Shown here: positions 1 through 16,131 of the stretch, piece after piece
How positions within the stretch are numbered: the first letter of the stretch is position 1
Layout: every line of letters begins with the position of its first letter
From: an uncultured delta proteobacterium
GTDB lineage: Bacteria > Myxococcota_A > Polyangia > Polyangiales > Polyangiaceae
Reading direction: 5' to 3'
Length of the DNA: 64,000 nt
Assembly (NCBI GenBank): GCA_963850305.1
Contig: CAWKKR010000003.1
Location: 1 to 64,000, forward strand
The notes under the pieces: generated by a model
Database searches by the model: none
Told to the model about the DNA's origin: nothing
The model's input: the letters and a program-made list of their open reading frames with translations, nothing else
Made by a program: the position numbers and the translations under genes

Positions 1-150
1 CCCGAGGTCAGCGGGACCGAAGACCGCGTCTCCTGGCAGAAAGTCGACGAGGATTGGATGGCTGATGGATGTGCGCGAAGTGGACACTGCTGAACCCTCT
101 CAACACTATGCGTCCGCGCGACCGCGGGCGCGAGGGGGCTTCGATCTTGG

Positions 151-169
151 TGTGACCTTATGTGTCACA
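151..169. promoter_or_regulatory. Palindromic operator TGTGAC-N7-GTCACA (candidate WYL-regulator site)
   Basis: Perfect 6-bp arms with a 7-nt spacer, same arms as the site abutting the WYL gene start (4091-4111); target gene not evident. Confidence 0.6.
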
Positions 170-187
170 TCGAGGACGGAATGAGCT

Positions 188-649
188 TCAGGGGATGGCG
201 ACCATGAACAGGTCCTCCCCCTTCCTCTCCAGGCGCCTCAGCCATCGGAGCACCTGTGTCGAGCGGGGTGGCATGCGGGTGACCGTCATCAGAACCGGAT
301 GACCCGTGTCGTAGAGCTTGCGCGCGATGCGAAGGACCCCTCGAAAACTGTTCGGTCGGTTACCGAGATCTTCCATGTGCTCCACGATCAGCGCGCCGCC
401 CGCTGCAACGCAGCGCTGCGGAAGCCCGCGCATCGTTTCGCGAATGATCGCATCGATGTGAAGGTCGATCAATGCCTCGGGCCGTCCACACGCGAGGCGC
501 GAATTCCTGACCGCTCCGTCATGCGCTGCGCCGCTTCCACGACAAGGCGGGTCTTGCCGCCGCGGGACGGGCCGTGAAGGACGACGAATCCGCCGCTCGG
601 TGCCCGCCGCCCAGGCGTGGCAGACCGTCGTTGCAGAGGCTCGCGACAT
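188..649 (-). CDS. Small DnaA/Hda-like AAA+ ATPase (frameshifted near 600 and 480)
   Basis: Joined frames give FVVLHGPSRGGKT (Walker A), then LIVEHMEDL (Walker B-like) and ...LYDTGHPVLMT, resembling the DnaA/Hda ATPase domain. Confidence 0.5.
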   Translation of the reverse strand: MSRASATTVCHAWAAGTERRIRRPSRPVPRRQDPPCRGSGAAHDGAVRNSRLACGRPEALIDLHIDAIIRETMRGLPQRCVAAGGALIVEHMEDLGNRPNSFRGVLRIARKLYDTGHPVLMTVTRMPPRSTQVLRWLRRLERKGEDLFMVAIP

Positions 650-658
650 GTCCAGGCC

Positions 659-692
659 AGCCTCATCGCGAGGGCTGACACGACAGGTCACG
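659..692 (-). promoter_or_regulatory. Candidate WYL-activated promoter: GAC-N7-GTC-N12-GAGGCT, 9 nt before ATG 649
   Basis: Minus strand reads CGTGAC CTGTCGT GTC AGCCCTCGCGAT GAGGCT GGCCTGGAC ATG. Confidence 0.55.
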
Positions 693-724
693 CAGAGACG
701 TCGGCGTGCTCGAGCAATTTCAGT

Positions 725-757
725 CGGACCCGCCGTGTCACGGTGCGACGCGATGCT
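725..757 (+). promoter_or_regulatory. Candidate WYL-activated promoter: GAC-N7-GTC-N12-GATGCT, 7 nt before ATG 765
   Basis: CGGAC CCGCCGT GTC ACGGTGCGACGC GATGCT CGAGGCG ATG. Confidence 0.55.
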
Positions 758-764
758 CGAGGCG

Positions 765-1470
765 ATGGAGTACCTGGCGCTATGCTTCTGCACGGGTCGA
801 TGGTTCGCTCATGACGTCAGCGCGTCCGGCGACGAGGCCGTCGACTGGCTGAAGGAGTTCGAAGCACCGCGCGAACAGGAGCTCCAGGAGCTCAGACAAT
901 TCGCCGCATCGTTTCCAGGGGCAGAATCGAATGCTCGGAAGCTCATCGCTCCGGCTGCGCTCGCGCGGTGACCACGCGGAGGTCCACGCCCGCCTCGACG
1001 AACGCGAGCTCGTGCTCTCGAACGCCCACGCGACGCCTCGCGGGCACGAGGAGCACCTCCGACGCGCCACCGTCACCGAAACGTTCGCGCTCGCCGCTCG
1101 ATGGCTCCTCGGTCACGAGCGGCACGGCTGCGCCGATCCGACCGAAGATGCGTTCTGGTACGACCGCGCCCAGGTCGCGGCGTACGTCATGGCCGAGCCT
1201 GATCCGACGAAGGTTGCGACGATGCCCGCGTGGTCGGACGCGTTCTTCGCATGGGTCGAGAGCGACAGAATCTGTCCGCGGCCGGGGCTGCTCGAAGCGC
1301 TGCAGGACTGGTCGGAACGGCACGGAGCGGATGGGGCGACGGGGTTGTTCTTGAAGGAGGGGGCGGCGACGGAGCTGCGGATTGCGGCGGTGGTCGAAGC
1401 TACCCGAGGTGACTCGAGCACTGTTCGGCGCCGCTCCCCTCGCGTATGCTCCCAATCTTTTCGCTCATGA
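765..1470 (+). CDS. Hypothetical protein (frameshift near 960)
   Basis: MEYLALCFCTGRWFAH... continues in the frame of ORF 931-1470 with protein-like composition. Confidence 0.5.
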
Positions 1471-1487
1471 ACAGGGAGAGGTGACAG

Positions 1488-2080
1488 ATGGCTCGGACGA
1501 AGGTGACAGCGAAGCGCGATGACGAGAGAGCGAAGGCCCTGCTCGACAGGGCCTGCCGTAGCTACAAGCGGCAGCTCAGGGCGGTGAACAAGGCAATGCA
1601 GGACCACGGGCGCTGCGGGAGTGGCCGGCCTGTCGGAGCCGACGCTAGTTTGGATGCTCGCGGAGTCGCTGAGGCCGTTGACGAAGGCGGAGGTGAACCT
1701 CGAGACCACCTACGAGGGCGACCGACGGCGAGGCGACCTTGATGTCGATGATCCGCCGAATCTGGATCGAGGCGCGGTGGTGGTGGTACCGAAGGGATAC
1801 CCTCAGAGGGATCCTTGGCGCGCTCCGACCCAAGATCTCGGAGAACGCGGAAAGCCATACGCCCTACGCACTGATTTTCACGGTCGATAGCGTCAAGGAG
1901 AAATCGTGGACGCCCGGAAAGGCTGAAAAGTGGCTCGCGAGCGAAGCGCGCAAGGACGAGTGGACCCTGGATTGCGCGGTCCCCGTCAGGAGCAACTACT
2001 TCGGTGCGACGGACACAGACACCACCGAGAAACACCGCAAGGGTTTGTTCGTGGCGGCCTTCTTTCGCCTGCCCGATCAG
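1488..2080 (+). CDS. Putative PD-(D/E)XK nuclease-fold protein (frameshifts near 1620 and 1745; 3' end uncertain)
   Basis: RBS GGAGAGG before ATG; joined frames give SEPTLVWMLA...ETTYEGDRRRGDL...RIWIEARWWW...YALIFTVD. Confidence 0.4.
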
Positions 2081-3440
2081 TACGGAAAGTCATCCCCCCC
2101 GTACAGCTCGTCCAAGCTGCGCGCCGCTCCGTACTGCGGTCCCCACCCCAACCCCGACGCGCGAAGCCACGCGCTAACCGAGAGACGCGTCTCGTGCCCG
2201 ACGGGGCGGTTCGCCACTCCGGAGATCTGCTCGATCTTCCACCCCGGCCCGGTCGCTGCGCGCGTGATGGACACCGTGGCGCGCTCGGGCGCGAGCACCC
2301 GGTAGATGTACGTGCTGCCGGCAGCAACGCGCTGCGCGTACGTGGCCACGCAGTGGTGCATGGTCCGCCCCTCGTCGTTCAACGCCTCCGACGTGGTCAG
2401 CGGAACGACCTCGTCACTGCCGGGAACCGGCGGCGGCGGGAAGACGACCGCGTCGGCTCTCGTCTCCACTTCTGCCGATTCAACCGGAGAACGAGCTCGT
2501 CGTGCCATGCACCGAGCTCGGCGAGGCTTCGCACGGCGGAACCAGCGCCGAGGCCGAGGAGCCGCCGCGGCCTCCAGCATGTCCCGGAGCACGTAGGGTG
2601 CCGCCTTGGATGCGCCCGAATCGGGTCCGGTCGCGAGCTCCTCGAGCAGCGAGTGCGACGCGGCTCGCCGCAGCTCGCTGTCGCAGAGGATGCGCAGCAC
2701 CGGCACCGTCAGGACCGGCAGATGCTGAAGCTCCTTCGCCGGCGTGGGATCGCGCAGAGCGCCGCGGAGCCAGAGCAGGCGTTCGATGGTCAGCGCTTCC
2801 GCTCGCAGCTTGGCGAGGATCGACACCGCCGAGCGCGTCGCCGGAAAGCCGAGCCAGCCCGCGATGACGGAGCGACGCGCCCGCACGAGCGAGCGAGCTG
2901 CGCGCAGCGGGCGCTGGACCGCGGGAGCGTGGAACACCCAGTTCGATGCGAGCGCGACCGCGAGACCGCGATTCGTCGAAGCAAGCTCCATCGCGCCCGG
3001 ACAGTGCGCGAGAAGCTGCACCATGTGCCATTGCCGCTCGGGCAGCTCGAGCACGAGCTCGAGAGGACCGAAGCGGGAAACGGCTCGATGAAGGTCCGGG
3101 CGGCACGGTGGCGAACCGTCCATCCCGCGACGAGACGCTGCGCGGGACCGCGGCAGCTCCGCTTCCCGACCGGGTACGAGCAAGCGGCCCTCTCTTCGCT
3201 GCTCGAGTCGGAGAAAGTCTGCGCACCGGCTGCTTCACGAAGCCACCGCTCGCCGCTCGAGCGATGTGACGTGATGCATCTGTACGGGGGCCGGGTTCCC
3301 TGCCACGGCGCGTCGCCGGGCTTCAGCCAGGCCGCGCACTGCGGCCACTGCCGGAGCACCAGCACCGCCTTCGGCCCGAACTGGAGCAGCTTGCCGTTCT
3401 TGAATACCCACCGCAACGCTGCCGTTTGCTCGCCAGCCAC
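2077..3440 (-). CDS. PcfJ-like domain protein (frameshifted near 3090-3200)
   Basis: C-terminal PLTTSEALNDEGRTMHHCVATY...YIYRV...ERATVSI...QISGVAN is typical of PcfJ-like domains; N-terminus from GTG 3440. Confidence 0.7.
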
Positions 3441-3446
3441 AGAGCG

Positions 3447-3481
3447 AGGATGAGCGCGAGGTGGGACGTCAGAGGTCCCAC
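3447..3481 (-). promoter_or_regulatory. Candidate WYL-activated leaderless promoter: GTGGGAC-N7-GTCCCAC with -10 CATCCT
   Basis: Perfect 7-bp palindrome at 3461-3481; 12 nt from GTC to CATCCT; GTG start 6 nt further. Confidence 0.65.
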
Positions 3482-3491
3482 TCGAGAAGCG

Positions 3492-4013
3492 CTACGCCTG
3501 CGCGGCCCAGGCGAGCAGGCGTGCGCTGCCCACGGTGCCGTGCAACGCGATCACGACGGGCTCTCCGACGAGCGTCGCCTTCCCGAGCGCGGCCTCGGCT
3601 TTTTCCACCGTCTCCTCGAGCCCCAGCGGCGTCGCGCGGTCCCTGGCGATTCCGGGTGGACAAGATGTGAGTGCGTACACGAAGGCCACCGCAAAAGCGT
3701 CGCGTTGTCCGCAGATCAGTTCCCGATCATCGCGTACACCCCTCACGCATTCACCGATCCCCTTGCTCCAGAAGACCTTGAACTCGAACCAGAACTCCCG
3801 CCCATCGTTCTTCACGACCAGGTCCCGTCGCTTCTGTTCGATTTCCACGACGAGATCGCCGCTGCTGGCCACGATCAGCCCCTGCGCCGCGGCCGCAACG
3901 ACCGCATACTCGGGTGAAACCCGTGGCAAGACCGTCGCGAGGAGCCCCACGTTCGCTTGCAACCCCGACGTCATCGCCGTCATCCACCAGTCCCCGCTAT
4001 CCCTATCGACCAT
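3492..4013 (-). CDS. Hypothetical protein, PD-(D/E)XK nuclease-like
   Basis: EIEQKRRDLVV...FWFEFKVFW (D...ExK) motif; divergent from the WYL gene. Confidence 0.5.
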   Translation of the reverse strand: MVDRDSGDWWMTAMTSGLQANVGLLATVLPRVSPEYAVVAAAAQGLIVASSGDLVVEIEQKRRDLVVKNDGREFWFEFKVFWSKGIGECVRGVRDDRELICGQRDAFAVAFVYALTSCPPGIARDRATPLGLEETVEKAEAALGKATLVGEPVVIALHGTVGSARLLAWAAQA

Positions 4014-4090
4014 GGAAGACAGTGTACGAGCAGGCCCGCGCTCTCGGAAGCCTCTGGACTCACTTCCCTCACCGTCCGTGCCGGTGCATG

Positions 4091-4111
4091 CTGTGACGTT
4101 AGAGGTCACAG
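4091..4111 (+). promoter_or_regulatory. Operator CTGTGAC-N7-GTCACAG overlapping the RBS of the WYL gene (autoregulation)
   Basis: Perfect 7-bp palindrome ending immediately before ATG 4112 and containing AGAGG. Confidence 0.75.
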
Positions 4112-5162
4112 ATGGCGACGAAGCGCACCCGCACCGACACGACGCGACCGAAGCCAAGGAAGGGTCGAGCCGCCATCGACCGCAACGCGCAGGTCGTCCG
4201 GGTGCTCCAGATCCTGCGCGAGCTCGACCGTCTCGGAGGGGTGGACCTGTACGAGCTCTCCCAGCGCTACGGAACGACGACGCGCACCATCCGGCGCGAC
4301 TTCGCGGCGCTCGAGGAGGCCGGCGTGCCGCTGGTCGAGGAGTCCAGCGAAGGGCGGAAGAAACGATGGCGCGTCGACTACAAGGGCCAGCAGCGCAAGC
4401 TCGCGGAGCTGCTCGATGCGAGCCACTACCTCGCGCTGCGCCTCGCCATGGACCAGGCCGGCGCCACGCGCCGGTCGAGCGCGATGTTCGCGACGCTCGA
4501 AGATCTCTCCGACAAGATCGAGAGCGCACTCGGCGCGAAGGGACGGAAGCACATCGAGGCGATCAATGGGTGCTTCTACTCGTACGAGAAGTTCGCGTAC
4601 CAGAGCTCGCCACCGGACGTGTTCTGGCCGCTGATCAGCGCAATCGCCGAGCGCCAGCTTTGCGTTTTGAAATACCGGGCCCCGCGAGCGGAACCCCAGG
4701 ACGCCAAATTTCGCGCCCTGCCACTGAAGCTCTTCGCGCACGGAGGTGCGATCTACCTCCACGCCTTCGTGCCGAAGCACGAGAACGTCATCGTCCTCAA
4801 TCTCCAGCGCCTCCAGGCACTCGAGGTTCTCGATGAGCGCGCGACACCTCCACCCGACTACAAACCGGAGCAGTGGGAGGCGTCCGCGTTCGGCATCTTC
4901 GTCAGCAAGAACCCCGTCCGCTACAAGCTCCGCTTCGTGAGCGATGCCGCTCCCTATATCCGTGAGCGCATCTGGCACCCGACACAGAAGCTTCGCGAGC
5001 TATCGCGCGGCGCGCTCGAGCTGACGTTCACGTGCAGCGAATCCTACGAGGTCGCCGCGTGGGTGGCGTCGTGGCGGACGGCGGTGGAGGTGATCGAACC
5101 GGAGTCGCTGCGACGGGAGATGGCGGAGTTCGGGAAGTGGAGTCGCCGAGAAGTACGGCTAA
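4112..5162 (+). CDS. wHTH-WYL-WCX transcriptional regulator (DriD/PafBC/YafY-like); likely extra base near 5141, true stop TAA 5160-5162
   Basis: ELSQRYGTTTRTIRRDFAALEEAGVPL HTH; LKYRA...PLKLFAHGGAIYLHAF WYL; ERIWHPTQKL...VEVIEPESLR WCX. Confidence 0.9.
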
Positions 5163-5409
5163 CCAGCCCCCCAGCGTTCCGACGAACGCTTCCCGCTCCG
5201 CATCTGTCTCGAACACGTGCACGAGCACCGCGTCCAATCGGTCATCATCGTCGAGCAGATCCGCAGTACGTGCCCTGGTCGACGATCACCGACGGCTTGC
5301 CGTCGAACAGCGCGAGCATGAGGGCGTACCCCTCGCCCCCGCTGTGCTCGACCACATCCGCTACCCGAGTCTCGATCGCGGACCACGACGCGAATGAAAG
5401 GCGTTTCAT
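5159..5409 (-). CDS. Small acidic hypothetical protein (frameshifted)
   Basis: MKRLSFASWSAIETRVADVVEHSGGEGYALMLALFDGKPSVIVDQG + DLLDDDDRLDAVLVHVFETDAEREAFV; upstream GAC-N7-GTC at 5435-5447. Confidence 0.45.
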
Positions 5410-5833
5410 CGACGTCGACCTGGGGTCTTCGGGAGACTCTCGTAGTCGACGGGAACCACGCCGGTAGTCTAAGCCGACCCGAGACAGGCGTCGCCATTCA
5501 TGAACGGGGCTCCGAGTGCCAAGGTGCGATCCAAGGACAAGTCTGACGCACTTTTCCGCCACGTCAGACGCGCGCCGACCTTTTGCTATTCATTCGAACA
5601 GACGGAGCCTGCGCGAGGAACCGTATCATTCGCGCCGTAAAGCGACGGACTACGGCGTCCCTGACGAGCGTTTCAACCCGGGCCGAACTCGTTTGCTCGC
5701 AAGAACTCCGACCAGACCTGTAGGAATGCTCCGAATTCAAACATTTGCGGCGCAAGAGAATGCCGCGTGCGGCGCAAGCGTCTGACGGTATCCGTTCGGT
5801 AGCCCCGGCGGGGCAGAAGGAGCTGCATCACAA

Positions 5834-7520
5834 ATGTCCGACGTCCTCACCATCGGCGCACGACTCGAAGCCCTCATCGGGAAGGATCAACGAAAGAAGG
5901 CCGTCGCAGCCACCTGGCTCGACGCATGGAATTCTTCCAATCCGCCGAAGCAGTTCTCGAGCGAGACCGTCGCCTCGCAACTCTCTCGCGTCCTCAAGTC
6001 CGATCCGGAGGGAGTTCGATTTCTCTTCGGCGACGACATGCGACGAGCTGCGACGTGGGCAGCGTTCCCCGCGGCGACAGCGGCGCAACGCGCGGCCATC
6101 GAACAATTGGCGCACGATGTGCTCGAGGGGCGCGACTTCCGCGTGATCGTCGATCTGAGTTCAGGTCCCACCGACCCGGCCCATGTACCCGTTCTTCTTG
6201 CTGCCGTGCGGGAGGAGTTGCTTACCGACGGAGCCGCTGGTCCGGCCGTCGTTCTCGTCAGCGCCAAGCAGTACGATTTCGTGCCGCGAAGTTTCGACGA
6301 GATCCGCGCACGGATTCGGGTGCACTGCGTTCAGGACGAGCAAGAACGCAAGAGCTACCTCGATGCCGCTCCGCACGCGCTCATCGTATCCACGAACCCG
6401 ACCGATGCGCCCTACGAGCGCTGGTCCGCCCTCGAGTTCGTGTGGGTCAGGGACTCCAACGCCAGACGCGGCTTCGGAGAGGAGCCGCCAGCGCGACCTA
6501 CCGTCGCGATAGTCCCTGAGGACGCGCTGACGGCATTTGCCCGCGACGACATCCTCGATGGGCTGCCGCTCGTTACGCGGCCCCTGCGCCAACTGGGCGA
6601 GCCCGACGAGAGCTCACTCCCGACGTCCGATGCAGGTGAACTGCGAGCTCTGATGCTTCGCCTCGCGACCGGTGAACCAATCACGCGGTCGAGCTACGAT
6701 GGCTCCACGATAGCCATCGGACGCCGGCTCGCCTGGGCGCAGGCGCTGAACGTCGACGCGAGTGCGACCCAGAAGGAGTGGAGGGAGATGCTGCCGCGTC
6801 GCCTCGAGCCGGCAACCATCGTGCCGATCGAGTGGGAACGGCACCTTCATGCCATGACTCGATTTGGTCTGACGGGCGCGTTCGCGTTCATCGCTGAAGA
6901 CTCGGTGCGCATCGTCAACGCGCCACCTGAGGTTCGGATCGCTTCCCTGGAGATTCGACCACCCGGTTCGTGGATGTCGCCGCCGATCGGGTCGACGTTC
7001 TTCGTGACTTCTTCGCCCAAGCGAACGAGATGACCACGGACGATACTGAGGAGGACCCGTTTCTACTACGGCTGGTGGCTCGCCATGCCCGGGACGAGGA
7101 CGACGAGTACGTTCTGGGGCTTGCTCGTGTCGTCCTGCTCGCATCAGCGGTCCTCGATCCAGACCCGCCAGATCTCGTGGAAACATGGACGGAAACCCGC
7201 AAGGGCATTGCCAACCTGCTGCGGGATCGGCTGCCCGAATCACGGTTGCGGATCGACAGCGGCGGGCGTCGCGTAAAGCTCCACTCATCCGAGTGGGATT
7301 CTCTTTCCGACGCGGTCCTAGTGGCCTCCAGCCCCGAGTGGCTGGCAGAGATCGCACGCTCGACGTTCGCTCCCCCATGCGCCCCGGTATTGGTCGACCG
7401 CGCGCACCCGCACGGCGGGAGTGGCGCGATCGAAGCCGAGCTCACGCCGACGCGCTTCGACGAAGGAGATATTCCTGTCAAAGCGTGCGCCGTCGCGCCA
7501 GATGGCGCGATTCTCCGCGG
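5834..7520 (+). CDS. Large hypothetical protein (frameshift near 6950; no stop before it runs into the antisense tRNA, 3' end truncated or uncertain)
   Basis: ORFs 5834-7033 and 6970-7797 are protein-like; RBS AAGGAG upstream. Confidence 0.55.
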
Positions 7521-7593
7521 CCCTCTCGGCAGGATTCGAACCTGCACGATGCGGCTTCGCACGCCGCCGCTCGATCCATCGAGCCACGAGAGG
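7521..7593 (-). tRNA. tRNA-Arg(GCG), slightly non-canonical, no encoded CCA
   Basis: CCTCTCG/CGAGAGG acceptor, GCTC/GAGC D stem with GG-A20, GCGGC-GTGCGAA-GCCGC anticodon arm, GCAGG-TTCGAAT-CCTGC T arm, G73. Confidence 0.8.
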
Positions 7594-7607
7594 GTGAAGA
7601 GAGATGA

Positions 7608-7619
7608 TTTTCAAGGAAC
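7608..7619 (-). promoter_or_regulatory. boxA-like antitermination element GTTCCTTGAAAA
   Basis: Lies between the two minus-strand tRNAs, just after a GCTC-TTCG-GAGC hairpin. Confidence 0.5.
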
Positions 7620-7641
7620 GAAGCTCCGAAGAGCCACGCGG

Positions 7642-7712
7642 GTCGGGATCCAGGATTCGAACCTGGACAGCGCAAGAACGGCGACGCCGCTCTCACGGGA
7701 CCATCTCCCGAC
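7642..7712 (-). pseudogene. Degenerate tRNA (identity unreadable)
   Basis: Intact T arm CCAGG-TTCGAAT-CCTGG and GTCGGGA/TCCCGAC acceptor pairing; D and anticodon arms eroded. Confidence 0.6.
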
Positions 7713-7809
7713 GATGTGCCTGCTCGACTCACGATTCACCGAGTCGAACGAGGCCGATCTTGTGCTGCATCGTCATGTTCATCTTCCTTTCCATTGAATC
7801 CCGGACCCC

Positions 7810-7853
7810 AGAAACGTCGAAAGCCGCCGAGGTTCAGGACCTGGGCGGCTTTC
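7810..7853 (-). terminator. Attenuator terminator of the leftward tRNA operon
   Basis: GAAAGCCGCCCAGG-loop-CCTCGGCGGCTTTC followed by GACGTTTCT. Confidence 0.7.
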
Positions 7854-7880
7854 ATTCGGCACCATGCCGGAGAAATTCGC

Positions 7881-7973
7881 CTAGGTTACGCCTCCGAAAT
7901 GATCTCGGCGCGACAGGGCCAGCGTCGTCCCTAAACGACACGGCGCGCTGTTCTGAATGACGTCACCCTTCAT
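7881..7973 (-). CDS. Leader peptide MKGDVIQNSAPCRLGTTLALSRRDHFGGVT (30 aa)
   Basis: ATG 33 nt after TTGACC (8007-8012); stop context CCTAGGCG nearly complementary to terminator arm CGCCCAGG. Confidence 0.55.
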   Translation of the reverse strand: MKGDVIQNSAPCRLGTTLALSRRDHFGGVT

Positions 7974-8267
7974 GTTGATGTTCCAGATACTCGTCGCGAA
8001 TGAATCGGTCAACGACTGAGACGCAGACCGATCGCGAGACATTCAAACGTTCGTGATCGCGTTCTCACGCTGACCGCTCTGTGCACGAGTGAGTCGTGAG
8101 CAAAGGATGCGGTCGGAAGTTTTCTCGTGCGTTCGCGCCGACGAACGCGCAGCGCACGCGCATGACGACGTCATGCGCGGCTCTCCCACACTTCGCGATT
8201 CGCATTTTGCAAATTCATCATGCAGACACTTGACGAGTCCGCATGCGTGTGCGATTAAGGCAAGGTC

Positions 8268-8405
8268 ATGTTCACGTTAGTTCTAGCCACATCACCCTGG
8301 GCGCTCGGAAGAGCCCCGAGGCATGCGTGCGCAATGGGCGGCGTGTATTTGTCGGTCTGTCTGAGCAAGCGCGCGTTCGCCGGTACGGAGATCGATATGC
8401 GCTAG
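8268..8405 (+). CDS. Leader peptide MFTLVLATSPWALGRAPRHACAMGGVYLSVCLSKRAFAGTEIDMR (45 aa; alternative start 8334)
   Basis: ATG 32 nt after TTGACG (8230-8235); contains TTA, CTA, ACA, TCA, AGA, AGG codons; TAGGGCGGC at the stop pairs with terminator arm GCCGCCC. Confidence 0.55.
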   Translation: MFTLVLATSPWALGRAPRHACAMGGVYLSVCLSKRAFAGTEIDMR

Positions 8406-8432
8406 GGCGGCAAAACCATAGAGAAATCCATG

Positions 8433-8470
8433 GAAGCCGCCCGGGAAACCGAGCGGCTTTCGGCGTTTCT
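8433..8470 (+). terminator. Attenuator terminator of the rightward tRNA operon
   Basis: GAAGCCGCCCGG-GAAA-CCGAGCGGCTTT followed by CGGCGTTTCT; near copy of the 7810-7853 element. Confidence 0.7.
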
Positions 8471-8554
8471 GGGTCTGGGGTTCGTCCTCGGAAGGCGACC
8501 CGCGCCGTAAACGCGGGGCCGATTGGCTAGGTGGTTCAACTCCACACAGGCCCA
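8471..8554 (+). tRNA. tRNA-Tyr(GTA), degenerate (C33, abnormal D arm)
   Basis: GGGTCTG/CAGGCCC acceptor, CCGCG-CCGTAAA-CGCGG anticodon arm, long variable arm GGCCGATTGGCT, GTGG-TTCAACT-CCAC, A73. Confidence 0.65.
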
Positions 8555-8618
8555 CTACTGGTGTGTGAACGGTGAGGTGTGTCCGTATGAAACAACGGCA
8601 GTGATCTATCCATAGTTC

Positions 8619-8689
8619 GGGTCGGTAGCACAGTGGTGTGCAGCGCCCTTTTAAGGCGAATGGTGCGAGTTCAACTCTCGCCCGGCCCA
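8619..8689 (+). tRNA. tRNA-Lys(TTT)
   Basis: GGGTCGG/CCGGCCC, GCAC/GTGC D stem, loop CTTTTAA, GCGAG-TTCAACT-CTCGC, A73. Confidence 0.85.
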
Positions 8690-8705
8690 CGTGTGTCCAC
8701 GACAC

Positions 8706-8776
8706 GGTTTCGTAGCTCAGTGGTGGAGCAGCCGCCTCTTAAGCGGACGGATCGAGTTCGACTCTCGACGAAACCA
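8706..8776 (+). tRNA. tRNA-Lys(CTT)
   Basis: GGTTTCG/CGAAACC, GCTC/GAGC, loop CTCTTAA, TCGAG-TTCGACT-CTCGA, A73. Confidence 0.85.
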
Positions 8777-8819
8777 CTCGGGGCGAAGGCCCCGGTGCGC
8801 GCGCAGCTCTGCGCGCTCG

Positions 8820-8831
8820 GTTCTTTGACAA
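8820..8831 (+). promoter_or_regulatory. boxA-like element GTTCTTTGACAA
   Basis: Between tRNA-Lys(CTT) and tRNA-Asn, after GC hairpins at about 8779-8816. Confidence 0.55.
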
Positions 8832-8893
8832 TTCGAAAGGACGTGCCGACGACGCGCATCGCGCGCGACGTGGCTGGGCTCTCCTCGATCCAT

Positions 8894-8965
8894 TGCCAGG
8901 TGGCGAAGCGGAAACGCAGGCGGCTGTTAACCGCCCTACCGCAGGTTCGAATCCTGCCCTGGTAG
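8894..8965 (+). tRNA. tRNA-Asn(GTT)
   Basis: TGCCAGG/CCTGGTA, GGCGG-CTGTTAA-CCGCC, GCAGG-TTCGAAT-CCTGC, G73. Confidence 0.9.
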
Positions 8966-9004
8966 CCGCGAGACGTCCAGGCCGCCGATCGTGATGTGCT
9001 TCAT
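8963..9004 (-). pseudogene. First 14 codons of an aldo/keto reductase (MKHITIGGLDVSRL), cut at the tRNA-Asn 3' end
   Basis: Typical AKR N-terminus divergent from a LysR gene; the expected GLG continuation is missing. Confidence 0.6.
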
Positions 9005-9112
9005 GACAATCAGGATGCGCCTGTTGGCCACCCCGGGGTAGACGCCCCAGACACGACAGGCTGTTGAGCAGGATTTGACAATGGGACCGGTTCGGCGGCT
9101 TGATCTTGCCCG

Positions 9113-10021
9113 ATGAACACCGCGCCCTTCCCCCAGCTCCAGGCATTCCTCACCGTGGCGCGCCACCGGAGCTTCAGCGGGGCAGCGCGCGAGCTGGGCG
9201 TCACGAGGTCGGCCGTCAGCCACACCGTGCGGCAGCTCGAAGAGCAGCTGCGCGTGGTCCTGCTCGCGCGCACGACCCGCAGCGTATCGTTGACCGACGC
9301 CGGAAGACGCCTCGTGGACAGCGCAGGGCCGTCGATCGGGCAAGTGGTCGCCGCGCTCGCGGAGGTCGCCGCGCAGCCGGGAGAGACGGTGGGTCGGCTG
9401 CGGCTGACGGTGCCGCCGATGGCGGTGCCCTTCGCGATCGAGCCGGTGCTGCCAACGTTCCGCGCGCGTCACCCGCGGATCGAAGTCGAGGTCGTCGTCG
9501 AGCAGCGCTTCGTGGACATCGTGGCGGAGGGCTACGACGCAGGCGTGCGGCTCAGCGAAGCGATCGAACGGGACATGGTGCAAGTGCGGCTCACCGATCC
9601 CTTTCGGTTCGTCGTCGTGGGCTCGCCCGGCTACCTCGCACGGAACGGTACGCCGGAGCGCCCCGAGGATCTCCTCCACCACGAGTGCATCACGTTTCGT
9701 TCGCAGACAACGGGAGCGCTCTACGCCTGGGAGTTCGAGCGAGGGCGCAGGAATTGGCGCGTGCCGGTTCGCGGCGGTGTCGTCAGCAGCGACGGGCGGC
9801 TCACCATCTCGCTGGCGGAGCAGGGCGCGGGCCTCATTTACACCTTCGAACCCATGGTCCTGGAGCAGCTGCGCAAGGGACGGCTACAGCGCGTGCTCGA
9901 GCGCTACGCGCCCACGGTTCCCGGCTTCTTTCTCTACTTCCCGAGCGTCGCCCGGCGGTCGGCGCCGCTACGCCTCTTCGTCGAAGCCGCCAAGGAGCTG
10001 GCGGTACGCGCCGTGAAGTGA
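9113..10021 (+). CDS. LysR-family regulator (CrgA-like)
   Basis: FLTVARHRSFSGAARELGVTRSAVSHTVRQLE...LLARTTRSVSLTDAG. Confidence 0.95.
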   Translation: MNTAPFPQLQAFLTVARHRSFSGAARELGVTRSAVSHTVRQLEEQLRVVLLARTTRSVSLTDAGRRLVDSAGPSIGQVVAALAEVAAQPGETVGRLRLTVPPMAVPFAIEPVLPTFRARHPRIEVEVVVEQRFVDIVAEGYDAGVRLSEAIERDMVQVRLTDPFRFVVVGSPGYLARNGTPERPEDLLHHECITFRSQTTGALYAWEFERGRRNWRVPVRGGVVSSDGRLTISLAEQGAGLIYTFEPMVLEQLRKGRLQRVLERYAPTVPGFFLYFPSVARRSAPLRLFVEAAKELAVRAVK

Positions 10022-10194
10022 GCCCGCTCGTCGCCCGGACCCGAAATGCGACTGACCACGGGCCCGATCCGCAGGTTCGCCTCCGTGAGCCCCGCGAGTT
10101 AGATTGAACGTGCGCGTGTCCTTCTCGTCCTCGATGCCGTGCGGCGCGAACGGATGACCTGGCGCGCAGCCGCGGCTGCCCTGGACGTAGCGCC

Positions 10195-10285
10195 GCTCGC
10201 GTATCATCCCTCCGACGAAGACGACTTCGCCGAGGATGTCGCCGAGGCTGCGGGCGACGGTCCAGAGTTCAGCGGGAGCCTTCAC
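10195..10285 (-). pseudogene. N-terminal stub of a nucleotidyltransferase-like toxin (VVFVGG)
   Basis: VARSLGDILGEVVFVGGM, coupled to the upstream gene, then loses similarity. Confidence 0.5.
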
Positions 10286-10785
10286 CCGCGGAGCCTTCGC
10301 TCGATCTCTTGGGCGGCGAGCTTGCGTTCACGCGCACGTCCAGCGCGGACCGCATCGACGAGCGCAAGCCACTCGTAGAGGTGATGATCGCGGAGCGCTG
10401 CGCGAGGTGCGGACCTGTAGAGCGGAGCGAGACCCTCGCCTCGCACCGTCCCCTCGGGATCGGGCCACACCGGCGGCATGTCGCCTTCGGCGAACTGCGC
10501 CTTCAGCGGCGGCGCCGCGTAGGAAGTCGGAACTCCGCGGGTGACGCCGCTCCACTCGGCGGGAAACACGTAGCGGAGCCCGTGGACGAGGAACTCCCGA
10601 AGCGCCTCCTTTCGGACCGATCTGCTCGCACCATCCACGAGGCCGCTCTGCACCGCGCGCTTAACGGCGGCATGGGCTTCGGATGCGCTGATTCCCAGGT
10701 CCTGGGCGAGCTTCGGGAACGCCCGATCCTCCGGGGCAGCATCCAGCAGTCGGAGGGAGACCAGGATGTCTTGTGGCTTCAACAC
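10282..10785 (-). CDS. Conserved wHTH protein (LKPQD... family), probable AbiEi-like antitoxin
   Basis: LKPQDILV...LGISASEAHAAVKR...EFLVHGLRYVFP...GVPT...LALVDAVRAGRARER; upstream palindrome ATTCGCGA-A-TCGCGAAT at 10797-10813. Confidence 0.7.
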   Translation of the reverse strand: MLKPQDILVSLRLLDAAPEDRAFPKLAQDLGISASEAHAAVKRAVQSGLVDGASRSVRKEALREFLVHGLRYVFPAEWSGVTRGVPTSYAAPPLKAQFAEGDMPPVWPDPEGTVRGEGLAPLYRSAPRAALRDHHLYEWLALVDAVRAGRARERKLAAQEIERRLRG

Positions 10786-10894
10786 CCATTTTTGATATTC
10801 GCGAATCGCGAATCGCACAAGAGCGTCACTAACAGGCAATGGCCCGTCATCCCATCAAACTTGACTTCTAAGTTAAGCTTGCCATATTTGTCTT

Positions 10895-11449
10895 GTGCTC
10901 CCCCTCCCCGCGTTCGATGCCGATGGCATGCTCCCGCCCGGCGACTACGAGCTGACGCTCGATGAGCTTCGAGCGTGTTCGCTCGTAACGGGAAGTAGCG
11001 TCGCATCGTCGACGTGGGATCAGCAGTGGCGCTCGCTGCTCGTGGAGAACCTTGCCGTGCTGGTCGGGCAGTTACGCCAGGTCGGCGTGAGTGAGATCTT
11101 TGCGGACGGCTCTTTCGTCGAGGACAAGGACCACCCGAACGACATCGACGGCTACTTCGTCTGCGAGCTGCGCCGGCTGGCGAGCGGCGAATTGCAGCGC
11201 GATCTCAACCTGCTGGATCCGCACAAGGTCCGGACCTGGGATCCGCGTGAGCGAACGCCGTTCCGTGGGTACCCCAAGAAGCAGCTTCCGATGTGGCACC
11301 AGTACCGCGTCGAGCTTTACCCGCACTACGGCCAGCCGTCGGGCATTCGGGACAGATTTGGGAACGAGCTTGAATTCCCCTCGGCATTCCGGATGTCACG
11401 TCGAGATGGGAAGCCTAGAGGCATCGTGAAGATTGGAGGAACGCCATGA
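10895..11449 (+). CDS. DUF6932-like polymerase-beta nucleotidyltransferase
   Basis: G.LPPG.Y N-terminus; DGSFVEDKDHPNDID (GS...DxD); KPRGIV C-terminus. Confidence 0.75.
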   Translation: MLPLPAFDADGMLPPGDYELTLDELRACSLVTGSSVASSTWDQQWRSLLVENLAVLVGQLRQVGVSEIFADGSFVEDKDHPNDIDGYFVCELRRLASGELQRDLNLLDPHKVRTWDPRERTPFRGYPKKQLPMWHQYRVELYPHYGQPSGIRDRFGNELEFPSAFRMSRRDGKPRGIVKIGGTP

Positions 11450-11880
11450 TCCGCAATGAAACCGAGTACCAGGAGGCGGTGAAGCGACTGAAGGAGGAGA
11501 GCACGCGCTACGAAGCGCACGAAGGCGAGCTCAAGCGGATGGGGCTCAAGCTCGACGAGATCAAGCGCGCCATGGACCCGCTTCGCTCGTTCAACCTTCA
11601 GCTCGAGGAAGAGGTCGAAGCCTACGAACGCCTCAAGCGCGGCGACCTCGGCGAAATCGACAATCTCCACGGCCTTGGTCGGACGCTGGTCGCCCTTCGC
11701 ATCGCTCTCGGCATGACGCAGCGACAGCTCGCCGAGCGCCTGAGCGTCAACGAGTCGCAGGTCTCACGCGACGAGCGCAACGAGTACCACGGCGTCACCG
11801 TGGACCGTGCGAGCCGGATCCTCGACGCGCTCGGGGTGACGCTCAGAAGCGCGTTTCAGTCGCCGATACGGGCGGGCTGA
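11446..11880 (+). CDS. XRE/HigA-like HTH protein
   Basis: MIRNETEY N-terminus; RIALGMTQRQLAERLSVNESQVSRDE HTH; ATGA overlap with upstream gene. Confidence 0.85.
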   Translation: MIRNETEYQEAVKRLKEESTRYEAHEGELKRMGLKLDEIKRAMDPLRSFNLQLEEEVEAYERLKRGDLGEIDNLHGLGRTLVALRIALGMTQRQLAERLSVNESQVSRDERNEYHGVTVDRASRILDALGVTLRSAFQSPIRAG

Positions 11881-11888
11881 GGAACGTG

Positions 11889-11922
11889 GCCGTCTGCGGT
11901 GCTCGGCTCGACCGCAGACGGC
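11889..11922 (+). terminator. GC hairpin after the XRE gene
   Basis: GCCGTCTGCGGT-N10-ACCGCAGACGGC. Confidence 0.5.
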
Positions 11923-12085
11923 GCCTGCACAATTGGGGGCCTGCATGTGCCTCCGGAAAAGTGCAGACGCCGCCTGCACCTTGCTGTGCGCCGCTGGGGC
12001 TGCCGGAACGTGGGGCCCCGGGGAAATTGGCGCTACTATATGCAATCTCTGGCGAAAATGGCCTCTCTGCCGGTGTTTCGACGGG

Positions 12086-12121
12086 TTGCATAAACATCAA
12101 TACGTTAGTATATTGCTAACG
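12086..12121 (+). promoter_or_regulatory. Sigma70 promoter TTGCAT-17-TATATT with inverted repeat over the -10 (AbiEi operator candidate)
   Basis: CGTTAGTA-TAT-TGCTAACG at 12103-12121; ATG at 12129. Confidence 0.7.
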
Positions 12122-12128
12122 AATCAGC

Positions 12129-12996
12129 ATGTCCGCAACCAACCGAACCCTGTCGAAGAACGAGGCCAAGATCGTTCTCGATCTCGAGTGGCGGGCCCAG
12201 AAGGCCGTCACGGCGGCGGAGATGCGTTCGATCCTCGGCGCCTCGGATGGGTACGCCCGCTTCGTGGCCCACCGTCTCGTGCAAGAAGGGGTGGCTCCAG
12301 CGCGTCCGCCCGGGACTGTTCCAGCTCGTACCCGGCCGAGCGAGGGCCCGAGGGCGTGAGCGACACGAACCCGCTGGCGATCGGACCGCTGCTCGTCGAT
12401 CCGTACTTCTTCTCCTTCGGCACCGCCTGCACGCACTACGGCTTCACCGAACAGGCGTTCGCCGAGGTGTACGTCGTCGTGCCGGACGCGCCAAGAGACC
12501 CGTGACGGTCAGGGGTACCCGGTACGTCTTCGCATCCGTTCCTGAGCGACGCTTCTTCGGCTTCGAGGAAGTCGAAGTGCTGGGCTCGAAGGTCCACATG
12601 GCAACGAGGGAGAGAGCCGTGCTCGACGCACTCGATCGCCCCCGCTATGCGGGCGGCATCCGCGAGGTCTCTCTAGTCGTCGGGAAGGCCGCGAGTCGTC
12701 TGTCCTGGGAGAACCTTCTCGGTCTTGCGAAGCGCTGGGACGAGTCGGCTGGTATCCAGCGGCTCGGCTACTTCCTGGACCTGCATCACGTCGAGCTACC
12801 AGCGAAGGTCCGTGACCGCCTCCGAGCGCTCATCGCGCCGGGGAGCAAGGTCCATCTCGGTTCCCGAACCGAGTGGGGAACCAGCGGCCATCTCGTTCAG
12901 CCGTGGGACATCATCGAGAATGTCCCGCGCGAGCAGTTGCTGGAAAAGGACCGCGACCGTCGCCGCAAGCGAGCCTTCCCGAAGAGGCCGAAGTGA
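12129..12996 (+). CDS. abiEi: Type IV TA antitoxin AbiEi-like (several frameshifts)
   Basis: L..KGWLQRVRPGLFQL, YFSFGTA..HYGFTEQ, FFGFEE...ATRERAVLDALDRPRYAGGI. Confidence 0.8.
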
Positions 12997-13878
12997 TCCC
13001 GAAGAAGATGGTGGATCGCTACGCCCACCAGAGCGGGGTCAAGGACCAACTCGTTGCGGAACGAGAGGTGGTGCTCACCTACGCCCTTCACGCCATGCGC
13101 GAAGCGAGTGTCCTCGATCTCCTCGCTTTCAAGGGAGGGACCTGCCTGCGGAAAATCATCTTCGGATCGACGGGACGCTTCTCCGAGGATCTGGACTTCA
13201 CGCTGCGCGGTGATGATGAACAGGCCGCTCTGACCGCGATCTACGAGGTGTTCAACACGAACCATCACGGCGTCGTGTTCGAGTTGGACGCCTGGTACGA
13301 GACCGACGATGGCTTCGGCATGGAAGTTCGGTACGGACACGAGTGGAACAGCGCGGGAAAGTACCGCTTGCAGGTAAGCACGCGGGAGAAGCCCACGCTG
13401 GACGTCACCAACTACTCGATGGTCGAGCAGGTCTACTTCAAGGACCTCGAGTTCGGCCTCTTCGATGTCCCCTGCCTGAATACCATCGAGGTGGCGTCCG
13501 AGAAGATCCGCGCCGCCTTCCAACGCGCCAAGGTTCGCGATTTCTACGACCTGCACCTTCTGACCCGGCAGAAATTGGACGGTGATCTCCTTCGCGCACT
13601 CGTCGTGCTGAAGCTCTGGCAAGTGCGTGATGCGTTCGACGGCTCGACGTTCTTCTGCGAAACTGAAGAGCAGCGACTACGATTGGGCGGACCTGAAACG
13701 CCTCCTCCGTCCGAACGATCGCGTCGAGCCCGCGACGATCATCGAGGGGATCGAGTTCCATTTCAAAGCCTTGCACGACCTCACCGATCTCGAACGAGAC
13801 GTCGTAGCCGATGCCAAGAAGGGCGCGCGGAACGATCCACTCGCGGAGCGTCTCCGCGAGTGGATTCGGAGTCGCTAA
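12993..13878 (+). CDS. abiEii: Type IV TA toxin AbiEii nucleotidyltransferase (frameshift near 13655)
   Basis: LAFKGGTCLRK...RFSEDLDF...SEKIRA...RDFYDL. Confidence 0.9.
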
Positions 13879-13965
13879 AGGGAGCGCGCGTTTTCGGTTC
13901 CGCAGTCCGGACAGTTCATCTGACCCCGAACCGCGAACTCGGCCACCACACGAACTCGAGGGTGC

Positions 13966-14021
13966 CCGTTTCACCGGGGCCAGCGTGGAATGCGGTCGAG
14001 AGAAATGTAGATGCCAGCGAA
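13966..14021 (+). repeat. About 55-bp repeat, second copy at 34989-35043 (-)
   Basis: CCGTTTCACCGGGGCCAGCGTGGAATGCGGTCGAGAGAAATGTAGATGCCAGCGAA versus CCGTTTCCCCGGGGCAGCATGGAATGCGATCGAGAGGAATGTTGATGCCGGCGAA. Confidence 0.8.
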
Positions 14022-14389
14022 TGTTGCCCGCCGCCGAATTCTCCGATCGCGCGTTTCCGTTTTGCGTTCCGCAAGTTCGAGCGGAACCACGGGGCTGCTG
14101 CGCACTTAACCAGGGTCAAAATGAGAAGTCGCGACACGCCGTGTCAGAACTTTTGAGGCCTAAACCAAATGCTTTCAGAAGCTTAGGAGATACAGCCAAA
14201 CTGTAGTGAAAGGCCGCGTCTGCTTTCAGAGTCCGGCCATTCGCGCTGCAAGGAAGGAGTGAACAAGCGTTCCCTCGCTCAGCGCCTCGTGCGGAGCCGG
14301 GCTCTCACTGCCGCACCTCTGGACGGGCGCCCGCCGCGATCGCTCCACTCGGCGGCGTCGTCGAACACCTTGGCGCTCTAACCGCGCCG

Positions 14390-14600
14390 CCAGGCGAAAC
14401 GGCGGCACTGGCCAGCTGCGGACGACCACGCCTTCCCCGAGCTGGGTCGCGGGTCCATCCATCGGCAGTTCGTCGAGTCGCAGTAGGGCTTCATCGACGC
14501 GGCTCGAAAGCCTCTCCGCAGCGACCGGATTGCGCTCGCGCAAGTAGGTAAGCGCCGAGAGGAAGTCGTCGGCCCCTTCCGATGACCAGACGACGGCCAC
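14390..14600 (-). pseudogene. ParE/RelE toxin, C-terminally truncated
   Basis: VVWSSEGADDF...YLRERNPVAAERL...L..LP..G...VRSWPVPPFRL, then unrelated sequence. Confidence 0.7.
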
Positions 14601-14818
14601 TAGCCGCCGAGAATCTTCCGGGCGCGACCCATGACCTCGTCGTGGGTCACAACGCGCGTCTCGGCTGACTTCAGCGCTGCAATCAGTCCAGCTTCCTCTT
14701 CATCCGAAAGCGCGATGGCCTCATCGACGGGAGCGAGGATGTAACGCCCGGCGGGAAGCTCCCGCAGCTCCTCGGGAAGGTCCTGCCCGTTCCACTCGAC
14801 CACTACCGCATTGGCCAC
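14600..14818 (-). CDS. Small acidic antitoxin
   Basis: 72 aa, LSDEEEAGLIAAL...VVTHDEV; overlaps the toxin start. Confidence 0.65.
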   Translation of the reverse strand: MANAVVVEWNGQDLPEELRELPAGRYILAPVDEAIALSDEEEAGLIAALKSAETRVVTHDEVMGRARKILGG

Positions 14819-14834
14819 GAGCGAGAGCCTAGCA

Positions 14835-15306
14835 TGCGCATCCTCTCCATGAGAGCGGCCGCCGCGTGGCGACCCGGTCGCGCTGTACGTTGAGCTCCCC
14901 GATGTCCGGCTTTTCGACCAATAACGGTGCCGGCGGCGGCGCTGCTGCTGTCCGGGCTGCCTCGACGGGATGTGACGCCCCATTCCCTTCATCAGCCCAG
15001 ACGACTGCGCCCACTACGGTGAATTCGGTGACGAGCACGTGGGTCGTGACGTATCCGTCGATTCGCTCCGCAATCGCGGCGCCGCGCGCGGCGAACGACG
15101 CCGAACGCTGGGGAGCGGCGGAGTTGGCGGCGTAAACGAGGACGTTGGTGTCGAAGAGGATCCGCTTGACCGGATCAGAGCGCTTCCTCCCCTCCTGTCG
15201 GTCCGGTCCGACGTGGAGCCTGGCAAAGCGGACTTCACAGCCTAATTGTCCAACAACCCGTTGGACAATTGCCTCCTCGGGCCACACCTCGGCGAAAGCG
15301 CGCACG
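14835..15306 (-). pseudogene. Mosaic of fragments: ParE piece (LVEKPDIG), PIN/VapC N-terminus (ILFDTNVLVYA), DUF1016/YhcG piece (RAFAEVWPEEAIVQRVVGQL)
   Basis: Short recognisable motifs joined without complete genes. Confidence 0.55.
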
Positions 15307-15468
15307 GTCCAGCCACCGAGCACGGGGGACGCCGGCCCAGAGTCCCTCCGGGTCCCCCCGGCGACAGTTCGGGACGAGAGCAGGCGGCGACCGGTCGGAT
15401 TTTCGCCTGCGCCCGCGGGCGTCCGAGGACACGAGCGAGCGCCCACGAGCGGTGGTACCATCAGCGCG

Positions 15469-16004: not shown

Positions 16005-16131
16005 TTTCGCGATGCGCTTCGTCGCCCTGAGTCGGTGAAGAAGCGCTGGCGATCGCGCCCCGTGTGCGCGCTCGCGCTGCAGGCACGAGCGCGGATAGGC
16101 GGGGCGAGCCAACACGCGCGTGGTCGCGGGC

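What the first reader, a model, noticed from the sequence alone, without database searches (positions are those of the whole stretch)
151..5447. A WYL regulator with a readable local regulon: GAC-N7-GTC-N12-(-10) leaderless promoters
Seen: GAC-N7-GTC boxes at 151-169, 674-692, 725-742, 3461-3481, 4091-4111 and 5435-5447. Three are perfect 6-7 bp palindromes. At four sites the geometry is fixed: GTC, exactly 12 nt, a -10-like hexamer (GAGGCT, GATGCT, CATCCT, weaker CAGGTC), then a start codon 6-9 nt later (649-, 765+, 3440-, 5409-). The fifth covers the RBS of the WYL gene itself; the 151 site has no evident target. Known: mycobacterial PafBC promoters are TGTCGG-N10-TANNNT (the same GTC-to--10 distance); as I recall, Caulobacter DriD binds a GAC-N7-GTC pseudo-palindrome; both are activated by single-stranded nucleic acid. 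Inference: an autoregulated, LexA-independent damage- or phage-sensing activator drives an uncharacterised effector set.
Basis: partly seen in the sequence, partly recalled or inferred. Interest (0 to 1): 0.82.

Follow-up and report, generated by a model that had tools for sequence, protein, structure and literature searches.

The report
Portable DriD-like gene switch in myxobacteria
A rare regulator gene sits among five copies of a DNA palindrome that recurs beside most of its relatives in other genomes; it likely binds these sites to switch on three neighbouring genes, probably on sensing single-stranded DNA, and likely shuts off its own promoter, much like the known Caulobacter activator DriD.

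Summary
Five of the six boxes are real; 5435 is not a site of this motif. A motif learned only from 57 orthologue upstream regions (STGTGAC-N7-GTCACAS) ranks window sites 1, 2, 4, 15 and 19 in the 6.26-Mb genome. An nAnnnT hexamer lies exactly 12 nt past GTC at 64 of 91 orthologue sites (other offsets at most 10). That is the published DriD/PafBC geometry, so the mechanism is known. Corrections: only about a third of promoters look leaderless. The box at the WYL start points away from the gene (27 of 28) and covers the gene's own -10/start region, which predicts self-repression. The regulon is local: recA, lexA and dnaE have no site. Window targets are a stand-alone DnaA-type ATPase, a PcfJ protein and an unnamed ~230-aa protein; their frameshifts are probably assembly errors. 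Orthologues drive double-AAA ATPases, FHA proteins and sensor-less wHTH-only paralogues. Four of DriD's ssDNA-binding arginines are replaced, so the ligand is open. Binding, start sites and ligand are untested. The scan noted DriD-like island regulons and a sensor-less twin earlier on other DNA.

The parts
150..170 (+). Strong box (score 22.5, genome rank 2) pointing back at the 3' end of the ATPase gene. The hexamer at offset 12 (179-184, GAATGA) lacks the final T and no target gene is evident: an orphan or relic site.
188..649 (-). Target 1: stand-alone DnaA-type AAA+ ATPase domain gene (about 155 aa) with two compensating frameshifts in this assembly; the Walker A motif lies in the shifted frame.
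   Evidence: intact homologues P0122 and P0123; Atlas neighbours Bac_DnaA, feature score 0.94-0.95
659..693 (-). Promoter for target 1: box 673-693, 12 nt, -10 GAGGCT (659-664), ATG 9 nt later (near-leaderless).
   Evidence: homologue P0123 has MSRA at the matching place
723..757 (+). Promoter for target 2: box 723-743, 12 nt, -10 GATGCT (752-757), ATG 7 nt later. Forms a back-to-back divergent pair with the 673 box, as in L030 and L022.
765..1470 (+). Target 2: one gene of about 230 aa, no Pfam family, split by one frameshift near 900-950; not the 68-aa ORF.
   Evidence: homologues P0187-P0189 cover both pieces
2077..3440 (-). Target 3: PcfJ-domain gene (about 453 aa) with at least three frame switches; GTG start 6 nt after the -10.
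   Evidence: Pfam PcfJ; homologues P0124 and P0126; L079 has the same box, spacing and GTG at +6
3447..3481 (-). Promoter for target 3: perfect 7-bp palindrome box 3461-3481, 12 nt, -10 CATCCT (3447-3452).
   Evidence: joint top oriented score in the genome, 24.9
3492..4013 (-). Orphan ORF (173 aa) divergent from the WYL gene. A PD-(D/E)xK-like look was noted by eye only. The 4091 box points at it but has no -10 at offset 12.
   Evidence: no Pfam, NCBIfam or PHROGs hit; not found in 400 phylum genomes
4087..4111 (.). Control region of the WYL gene: predicted own -10 CATGCT (4087-4092) overlapping the strongest box (4091-4111), which covers the predicted start site and the AGAGG ribosome site up to the ATG.
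4112..5162 (+). wHTH-WYL-WCX regulator. Homologues end about 10 residues after residue 343; the called ORF runs to 5467 (451 aa) because of a frameshift near 5141.
   Evidence: Pfam; homologues; DriD is the top PDB hit by profile and by fold; C7 copy keeps the same tail
5435..5447 (-). Rejected: plain GAC-N7-GTC before the convergent 5409- gene; not a site of this motif.
   Evidence: scores -8.2 and -17.9; no box upstream of the C7 paralogue

Best explanation
The 4112 gene encodes a wHTH-WYL-WCX regulator that likely binds the directional palindrome TGTGACC-N5-YGTCAC as a homodimer and would recruit RNA polymerase at promoters where the box replaces the -35 element, 12 bp before a weak nAnnnT -10, most likely after sensing single-stranded DNA. 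Here it would switch on three neighbours: a stand-alone DnaA-type ATPase, a ~230-aa unnamed protein and a PcfJ protein. The box at its own start overlaps its predicted -10 and start site, so the active dimer would also block its own transcription. In most orthologues that same box would fire a divergent gene, often a ~710-aa double-AAA ATPase. The cassette is an accessory module with a local regulon, not the host's main damage response. Shown: motif, spacing, direction, conservation, locality, domain architecture. Inferred: binding, activation, self-repression, ligand.
For: De novo motif from 57 orthologue upstream regions, window excluded; [TG]GAC-N7-GTC[AC] in 32 of 57, other spacings at most 3 of 57, distant homologues 3 of 58. 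Window sites rank 1, 2, 4, 15, 19 genome-wide. nAnnnT at offset 12 in 64 of 91 sites, other offsets at most 10; 33 of 46 after clustering at 70%, and 14 of 19 for sites outside the training region. The -10 lies in the box-predicted direction in 59 of 86, opposite in 2; boxes near the WYL start point away in 27 of 28. An own-strand nAnnnT abuts the box in 16 of 27 such sites versus 4 of 59 others, and an in-frame start codon lies inside the box 7 nt later in 13 of 27. DriD is the best PDB match by profile (E 4e-22) and by fold. Recognition-helix R58/R62 match DriD R37/R41 (97% and 100% of 119). Two DriD promoters printed in PMC13004042 show the same 12-nt gap, counted by eye; the PafBC consensus is tGTCgg-N10-tA-N3-T. 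PcfJ genes in 8 family genomes lacking this clade have no clade box (0 of 9 loci). Y188 and Y215 are kept (98-99%), and the matching tyrosines are needed for damage induction in DdaA, which also lacks one loop arginine.
Against: No binding, start-site or expression data. The two strongest window boxes (150, 4091) have no -10 at offset 12. DriD's ssDNA arginines R178, R189, R204 and R207 align to F/Y, G, a mostly hydrophobic position and N in this clade, and R176A-R178A or R207A cripple DriD. DriD was found not to regulate its own gene despite a similar box. In 5 of 64 orthologue promoters the box points at the WYL gene itself. The orientation rule was set after seeing the sites, and the loci are related (21 of 57 fall in one 70% single-linkage cluster). 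Every gene of the cassette with intact homologues is frameshifted in this assembly, so this copy could be decayed.
Confidence: 0.7

Rival explanations
1. Same activator and promoters, but the sensor reads something other than ssDNA (RNA, a nucleotide signal or a protein), or the protein is largely constitutive and is tuned by self-repression and wHTH-only competitors.
For: Four DriD ssDNA arginines are replaced clade-wide, with clade-specific conserved residues H105, C184 and N230. DdaA tyrosine mutants keep basal activation. Targets are not recA, lexA or dnaE in this genome.
Against: Y188, Y215 and R233 are kept. DdaA lacks the same loop arginine yet responds to damage. Orthologue targets and neighbours include DnaE, a TM0106 nuclease-helicase, SbcCD and UvrD/AddA-like enzymes.
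Confidence: 0.17
2. The protein is a BrxR/CapW-like repressor that sits on these promoters and is released by damage or phage.
For: Island setting near tRNAs, toxin-antitoxin genes and IS elements. Some orthologue neighbours match PADLOC models. The box covers the gene's own start.
Against: The box occupies the -35 position of promoters with weak -10s at a fixed distance and direction, which is activator geometry. BrxR and CapW rank far below DriD by fold (E 1e-7 versus 1e-16).
Confidence: 0.06
3. The cassette in this genome is a decayed relic: the promoters are ancestral and real, but the genes are pseudogenes.
For: At least 7 frameshifts in 5.5 kb; two strong boxes lack a -10 or a target.
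Against: The breaks seen are frame switches, often compensating. The essential dnaE1 is also frameshifted in this assembly. Overlapping contig ends show up to 62 gaps in 5.8 kb against 0-5 in most interior repeat pairs, and the cassette is at a contig start. Intact homologues of WYL, ATPase and PcfJ share one listed contig length, 82,188 bp.
Confidence: 0.05
4. The boxes are chance or are read by another regulator in the genome.
For: Plain GAC-N7-GTC is at background. Two other WYL genes exist, one keeping both recognition arginines.
Against: The motif tracks this clade across genomes. Neither other WYL gene has a box upstream.
Confidence: 0.02

Closest known systems
DriD (Caulobacter crescentus; PMC9186387, PMC10853764, PMC13004042)
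   Same: wHTH-helical linker-WYL-WCX over full length; RxxxR recognition helix; GAC-N7-GTC core; same distance to the -10; box beside its own start facing a divergent gene.
   Different: About 24% identity; flanks TGT/ACA instead of TAC/GTA; four ssDNA-contact arginines replaced; rare, patchy and local rather than recA/didA/recJ; own -10 and often the start codon nested in the box; wHTH-only paralogues among targets.
PafBC (mycobacteria; PMC8635444, PMC6789036)
   Same: tGTC 12 nt before tA-N3-T; two recognition arginines.
   Different: PafBC is a heterodimer reading one half-site, with a regulon of about 150 genes; here one gene and a full palindrome; only one of the two loop arginines is kept.
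SiwR (Mycobacterium smegmatis; PMC10693628)
   Same: Homodimeric WYL activator of adjacent genes through an imperfect palindrome in the -26 region.
   Different: GGA triplet and DinB-family targets; both loop arginines needed; no hit to it was tested here.
DdaA (Moraxellaceae; PMC12392091, PMC13010146)
   Same: GWC-N7-GWC core; first loop arginine substituted; tyrosines kept; regulates defence genes too.
   Different: C/G flanks; site reported about 50 bp upstream of the start site; genome-wide recA/uvrA regulon.
BrxR / CapW repressors
   Same: wHTH-WYL-WCX; island context.
   Different: Repressors; much weaker structural match; promoter geometry here is that of an activator.

Membership tests
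DriD-type homodimeric WYL activators | wHTH-WYL-WCX architecture with helical linker | tested here: met
   Pfam; full-length profile match to DriD; model (pLDDT 70.6, pTM 0.43) and Foldseek top hits DriD
DriD-type homodimeric WYL activators | Two recognition-helix arginines reading GXC half-sites | tested here: met
   R58 97% and R62 100% of 119 homologues, aligned to DriD R37/R41
DriD-type homodimeric WYL activators | GXC-N7-GXC site at a fixed distance from the -10, in place of the -35 | tested here: met
   DriD spacing counted by eye from promoters printed in PMC13004042
DriD-type homodimeric WYL activators | DriD consensus flanks (CGAC...GTCG) | tested here: not met
   flanks are TGTGAC/GTCACA versus ATACGAC/GTCGTAT
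DriD-type homodimeric WYL activators | ssDNA-contact residues | tested here: inconclusive
   Y168, Y192 and R210 equivalents kept; R178, R189, R204 and R207 replaced; mapping is by alignment, not by structure
DriD-type homodimeric WYL activators | ssDNA-dependent DNA binding and RNA polymerase recruitment | not testable with these tools
   needs EMSA, anisotropy and in vitro transcription
DriD-type homodimeric WYL activators | Regulon includes core repair genes such as recA | tested here: not met
   no site at recA (2 copies), lexA or dnaE1; imuA has a palindrome (11.8) without the -10. dnaE has a site in L042 and L043
PafBC | Tandem heterodimeric pair and non-palindromic site | tested here: not met
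   single gene; palindromic site
BrxR/CapW repressors | Repressor-type operator before a named defence operon | tested here: not met
   activator geometry; no PADLOC hit for the homologues of two window targets, P0122 and P0126

The most novel reading that the evidence does not exclude
A horizontally moving clade of DriD-like activators with a rebuilt sensor pocket that reads a signal other than ssDNA, wired as a self-limiting circuit: one 21-bp box both fires a divergent effector (double-AAA ATPase, DnaA-like ATPase, PcfJ) and blocks the regulator's own leaderless start, while induced wHTH-only paralogues compete for the box to shut the response off.
Probability: 0.2. Interest if true: 0.78.

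Novelty: new variant of a known kind. Interest (0 to 1): 0.52.

Why it matters
It gives a ready-to-test binding site, promoter rule and target list for an uncharacterised WYL clade in Myxococcota, a group where a LexA-independent damage response is documented (PMC12288472) and no WYL regulon turned up in the searches. It suggests the GTC-N12-(-10) rule holds from mycobacteria to Caulobacter to myxobacteria, with flanking bases setting specificity. The rule lets one read off candidate damage or anti-phage effectors (double-AAA ATPase, stand-alone DnaA ATPase, PcfJ, FHA proteins). The altered pocket bears on the open question of which ligands WYL domains sense.

Tried and rejected
Plain GAC-N7-GTC as evidence: background. 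The 5435 site and the unlisted 541 and 1264 sites: rejected by score. A 451-aa protein with a long tail: homologues are mostly 330-380 aa; frameshift. A genome-wide regulon: none at recA, lexA, dnaE1; the best outside hit with a -10 lies inside what looks like a helicase gene. In five orthologue genomes an exact pattern gave 3-6 matches each (control 0-2); in three of them most lay beside the WYL gene. Of nine stretches fetched from the other two genomes, only the dnaE site stood before a recognisable gene. A phage origin: viral contigs gave 5 loci, HTH fragments only. Island borders: no duplicated tRNA end found. Sequencing runs: none was listed, so frameshifts and expression stayed unchecked. 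A homologue-based frameshift rate was too small to use (1 in 19 bins). The orphan 3492-4013 ORF found no family or relative. An Atlas search of the double-AAA N-terminus gave only unnamed clusters. No complex prediction was run.
Full report
OBSERVATION. The bare GAC-N7-GTC pattern carries no information in this 66% GC genome: 3586 copies, 40 in the window, fewer than at several other spacings. The extended form does: TGTGAC-N7-GTCACA occurs twice in 6.26 Mb, at 151 and 4092.

THE REGULATOR. 4112 encodes HTH_11, WYL and WCX domains. The homologue search gave 222 proteins; the 120 listed are 51-87% identical apart from the query itself and mostly 330-380 aa. Named loci are mainly Myxococcota MAGs. 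DriD is the best solved relative by profile (E 4e-22; PafBC 2e-9) and by fold (a moderate model, pTM 0.43). The clade is rare: 0 of 60 relatives including 6 of the same genus, and 3 of 400 phylum genomes. The 451-aa call is due to a frameshift near 5141.

INDEPENDENT MOTIF TEST. Of 158 loci fetched I kept 57 with at least 43% identity, at least 100 nt upstream and no near-duplicate, and 58 distant ones (below 40%) as a control. Palindromic EM on the 250 nt upstream, window excluded, returned STGTGAC-N7-GTCACAS; the seed occurs in 32 of 57 (other spacings at most 3) and 3 of 58 distant loci. This matrix ranks window sites 4091, 150, 3461, 723 and 673 as 1, 2, 4, 15 and 19 in the genome; 5435 scores -8.2.

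GEOMETRY. The matrix holds no -10 information, yet nAnnnT falls 12 nt after GTC at 64 of 91 sites scoring 12 or more (92 found, 1 dropped for short flank), against at most 10 at any other offset from 4 to 29. With one locus per 70% cluster it is 33 of 46, and 14 of 19 for sites outside the training region. The box is directional (GACCY distal, YGTC proximal). With a rule set after seeing the sites, 86 of 90 could be oriented (one duplicate locus dropped), and the -10 lies in the predicted direction in 59 and opposite in 2. The centre falls near -31. PafBC's tGTCgg-N10-tA-N3-T is the same distance, and the didA and CCNA_03891 promoters printed in PMC13004042 give 12 nt by eye. ATG or GTG lies 5-7 nt past the -10 in 29 of 63 promoters, about 6 expected, so roughly a third look leaderless; many others show a Shine-Dalgarno and starts 18-60 nt on.

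AUTOREGULATION. Boxes within 130 nt of the conserved RN motif near the WYL start point away from the gene in 27 of 28 cases, 21 with a -10. On the WYL strand an nAnnnT ends 2 nt before GAC in 16 of 27 versus 4 of 59 other boxes. The last T is part of the motif, so the fair test is the A: 17 of 27 versus 8 of 59, p = 7e-6, loci not independent. In 13 of 27 an in-frame start codon sits 7 nt later, inside the box. The window has CATGCT at 4087-4092. The bound dimer would therefore cover its own start site while activating the opposite gene. Against this: DriD was proposed to autorepress but later found not to regulate driD; 5 of 64 orthologue promoters point at the WYL gene itself; and the window's 4091 box has no divergent -10.

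TARGETS. In the window: 649- is a stand-alone DnaA-type ATPase; 765+ is one gene of about 230 aa with no family; 3440- is a PcfJ gene whose homologue in L079 has the same box and a GTG at +6. Homologues of the WYL, ATPase and PcfJ share a listed contig length of 82,188 bp, which suggests an intact sister cassette; I could not fetch it. Among 59 non-WYL ORFs behind orthologue promoters: 14 in a double-AAA ATPase cluster, 8 FHA, 5 wHTH-only, 3 DUF7107-like (below cut-off), 2 DUF2779, 2 DnaE, and singles such as ClpP, HAD, deacetylase and ARPP-1. Neighbours scanned (97-100 proteins chosen from 181 called in 22 of the 57 loci, plus a few added) include UvrD/AddA-like helicases, SbcCD directly behind one AAA gene, a TM0106 nuclease-helicase and scattered PADLOC matches, but no complete named system. 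Three wHTH-only genes (L026, L028, L030) keep both recognition arginines; three others (L011, L090, L096) keep one. L028's lies directly behind a box-driven gene rather than having its own box. Host recA, lexA and dnaE1 have no site. PcfJ genes in 8 genomes lacking the clade lack the box (0 of 9 loci); in L186 and L188 they face a second WYL clade with a TGCGAC-N7-GTCGCA box and the same spacing.

LIGAND. Mapping DriD's ssDNA contacts through the profile alignment onto 119 homologues: Y168, Y192 and R210 are kept (98-100%); R178, R189, R204 and R207 become F/Y, G, mixed mostly hydrophobic residues and N. DdaA also lacks the R207 equivalent and still needs the two tyrosines for damage induction. 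ssDNA stays the best guess, at roughly 0.6-0.7.

FRAMESHIFTS. At least 7 in 5.5 kb. The essential dnaE1 is also broken, contig ends are gap-rich and the cassette is at a contig start, so assembly error is likelier than decay. No run was listed to check.

LITERATURE. Seen: PMC10853764 (passages, section 21), PMC13004042 (abstract, sections 6 and 13, passages; its Fig. 4C is not held), PMC12392091 (passages, section 28), PMC13010146 (passages, section 26), PMC10693628 (passages, section 12), and passages of PMC8635444, PMC6789036, PMC9186387 and PMC12288472. No supplement was read; homologue tables there could include this clade. Five searches listed no paper on this clade, its TGTGAC box or wHTH-only WYL paralogues; subscription papers are not covered. 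The labels 'PD-(D/E)xK-like' (orphan ORF) and 'AddA-like' are by eye or recall. Earlier scan notes, seen after my analysis, report similar DriD-like regulons on other DNA; they are unchecked and not used as support.

VERDICT. A real, well-defined regulon with a known mechanism; a new variant in specificity, mobility, promoter packing and sensor pocket. Interest 0.52.

Noticed in passing
L186:2700-3745, L188:406-2760, L187:1479-3273: A second WYL clade (Pfam-confirmed in L186 and L188) lies divergent from PcfJ genes and has TGCGAC-N7-GTCGCA boxes with the same 12-nt spacing. PcfJ looks like a recurrent WYL target and the flanks like a specificity code. In L188 a further box precedes what looks by eye like a phosphatase plus ADP-ribosylglycohydrolase gene.
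   Followed up: partly
L026:9119-9397, L028:6143-6409, L030:6002-6286, L011:5888-6148, L090:2758-3078, L096:1-333: wHTH-only genes (about 85-110 aa) in or behind box promoters; candidate sensor-less feedback competitors.
   Followed up: partly
L042:10319-13825, L043:5882-9382: A DNA polymerase III alpha gene starts 5 nt after a box-N12-(-10) promoter in two Haliangiales/Kofleriaceae genomes.
   Followed up: partly
window 5146-5424 and G000 C7:8172-8448: 91%-identical copy holding the WYL gene's last codons and an intact 82-aa version of the 5409- gene, with no WYL gene or box nearby: a remnant of a similar cassette.
   Followed up: partly
L071, L073, L102, L108, L109, L125, L130, L137, L142, L146, L157: Some loci of 27-33%-identical homologues (including Nitrospinota and Desulfuromonadales MAGs) carry the same TGTGAC-type box with a -10 at offset 12.
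   Followed up: no
G000 C9:35366-35386: Palindromic GAC-N7-GTC (score 11.8) about 140 nt before an imuA-like gene near dnaE2, without a -10 at offset 12.
   Followed up: partly
G000 C1:45869-46669: The essential dnaE1 gene is split over frames: this assembly carries indel errors.
   Followed up: yes
window 7519-21100: Four tRNA genes (Arg, Lys, Lys, Asn), then a LysR gene, DUF6932-HTH, AbiEii, ParE-like and PIN-like genes and IS elements: an island-like stretch next to the cassette.
   Followed up: partly
window 1621-2305: Two overlapping ORFs with no family hit that look by eye like one frameshifted nuclease-type gene; no box upstream.
   Followed up: no
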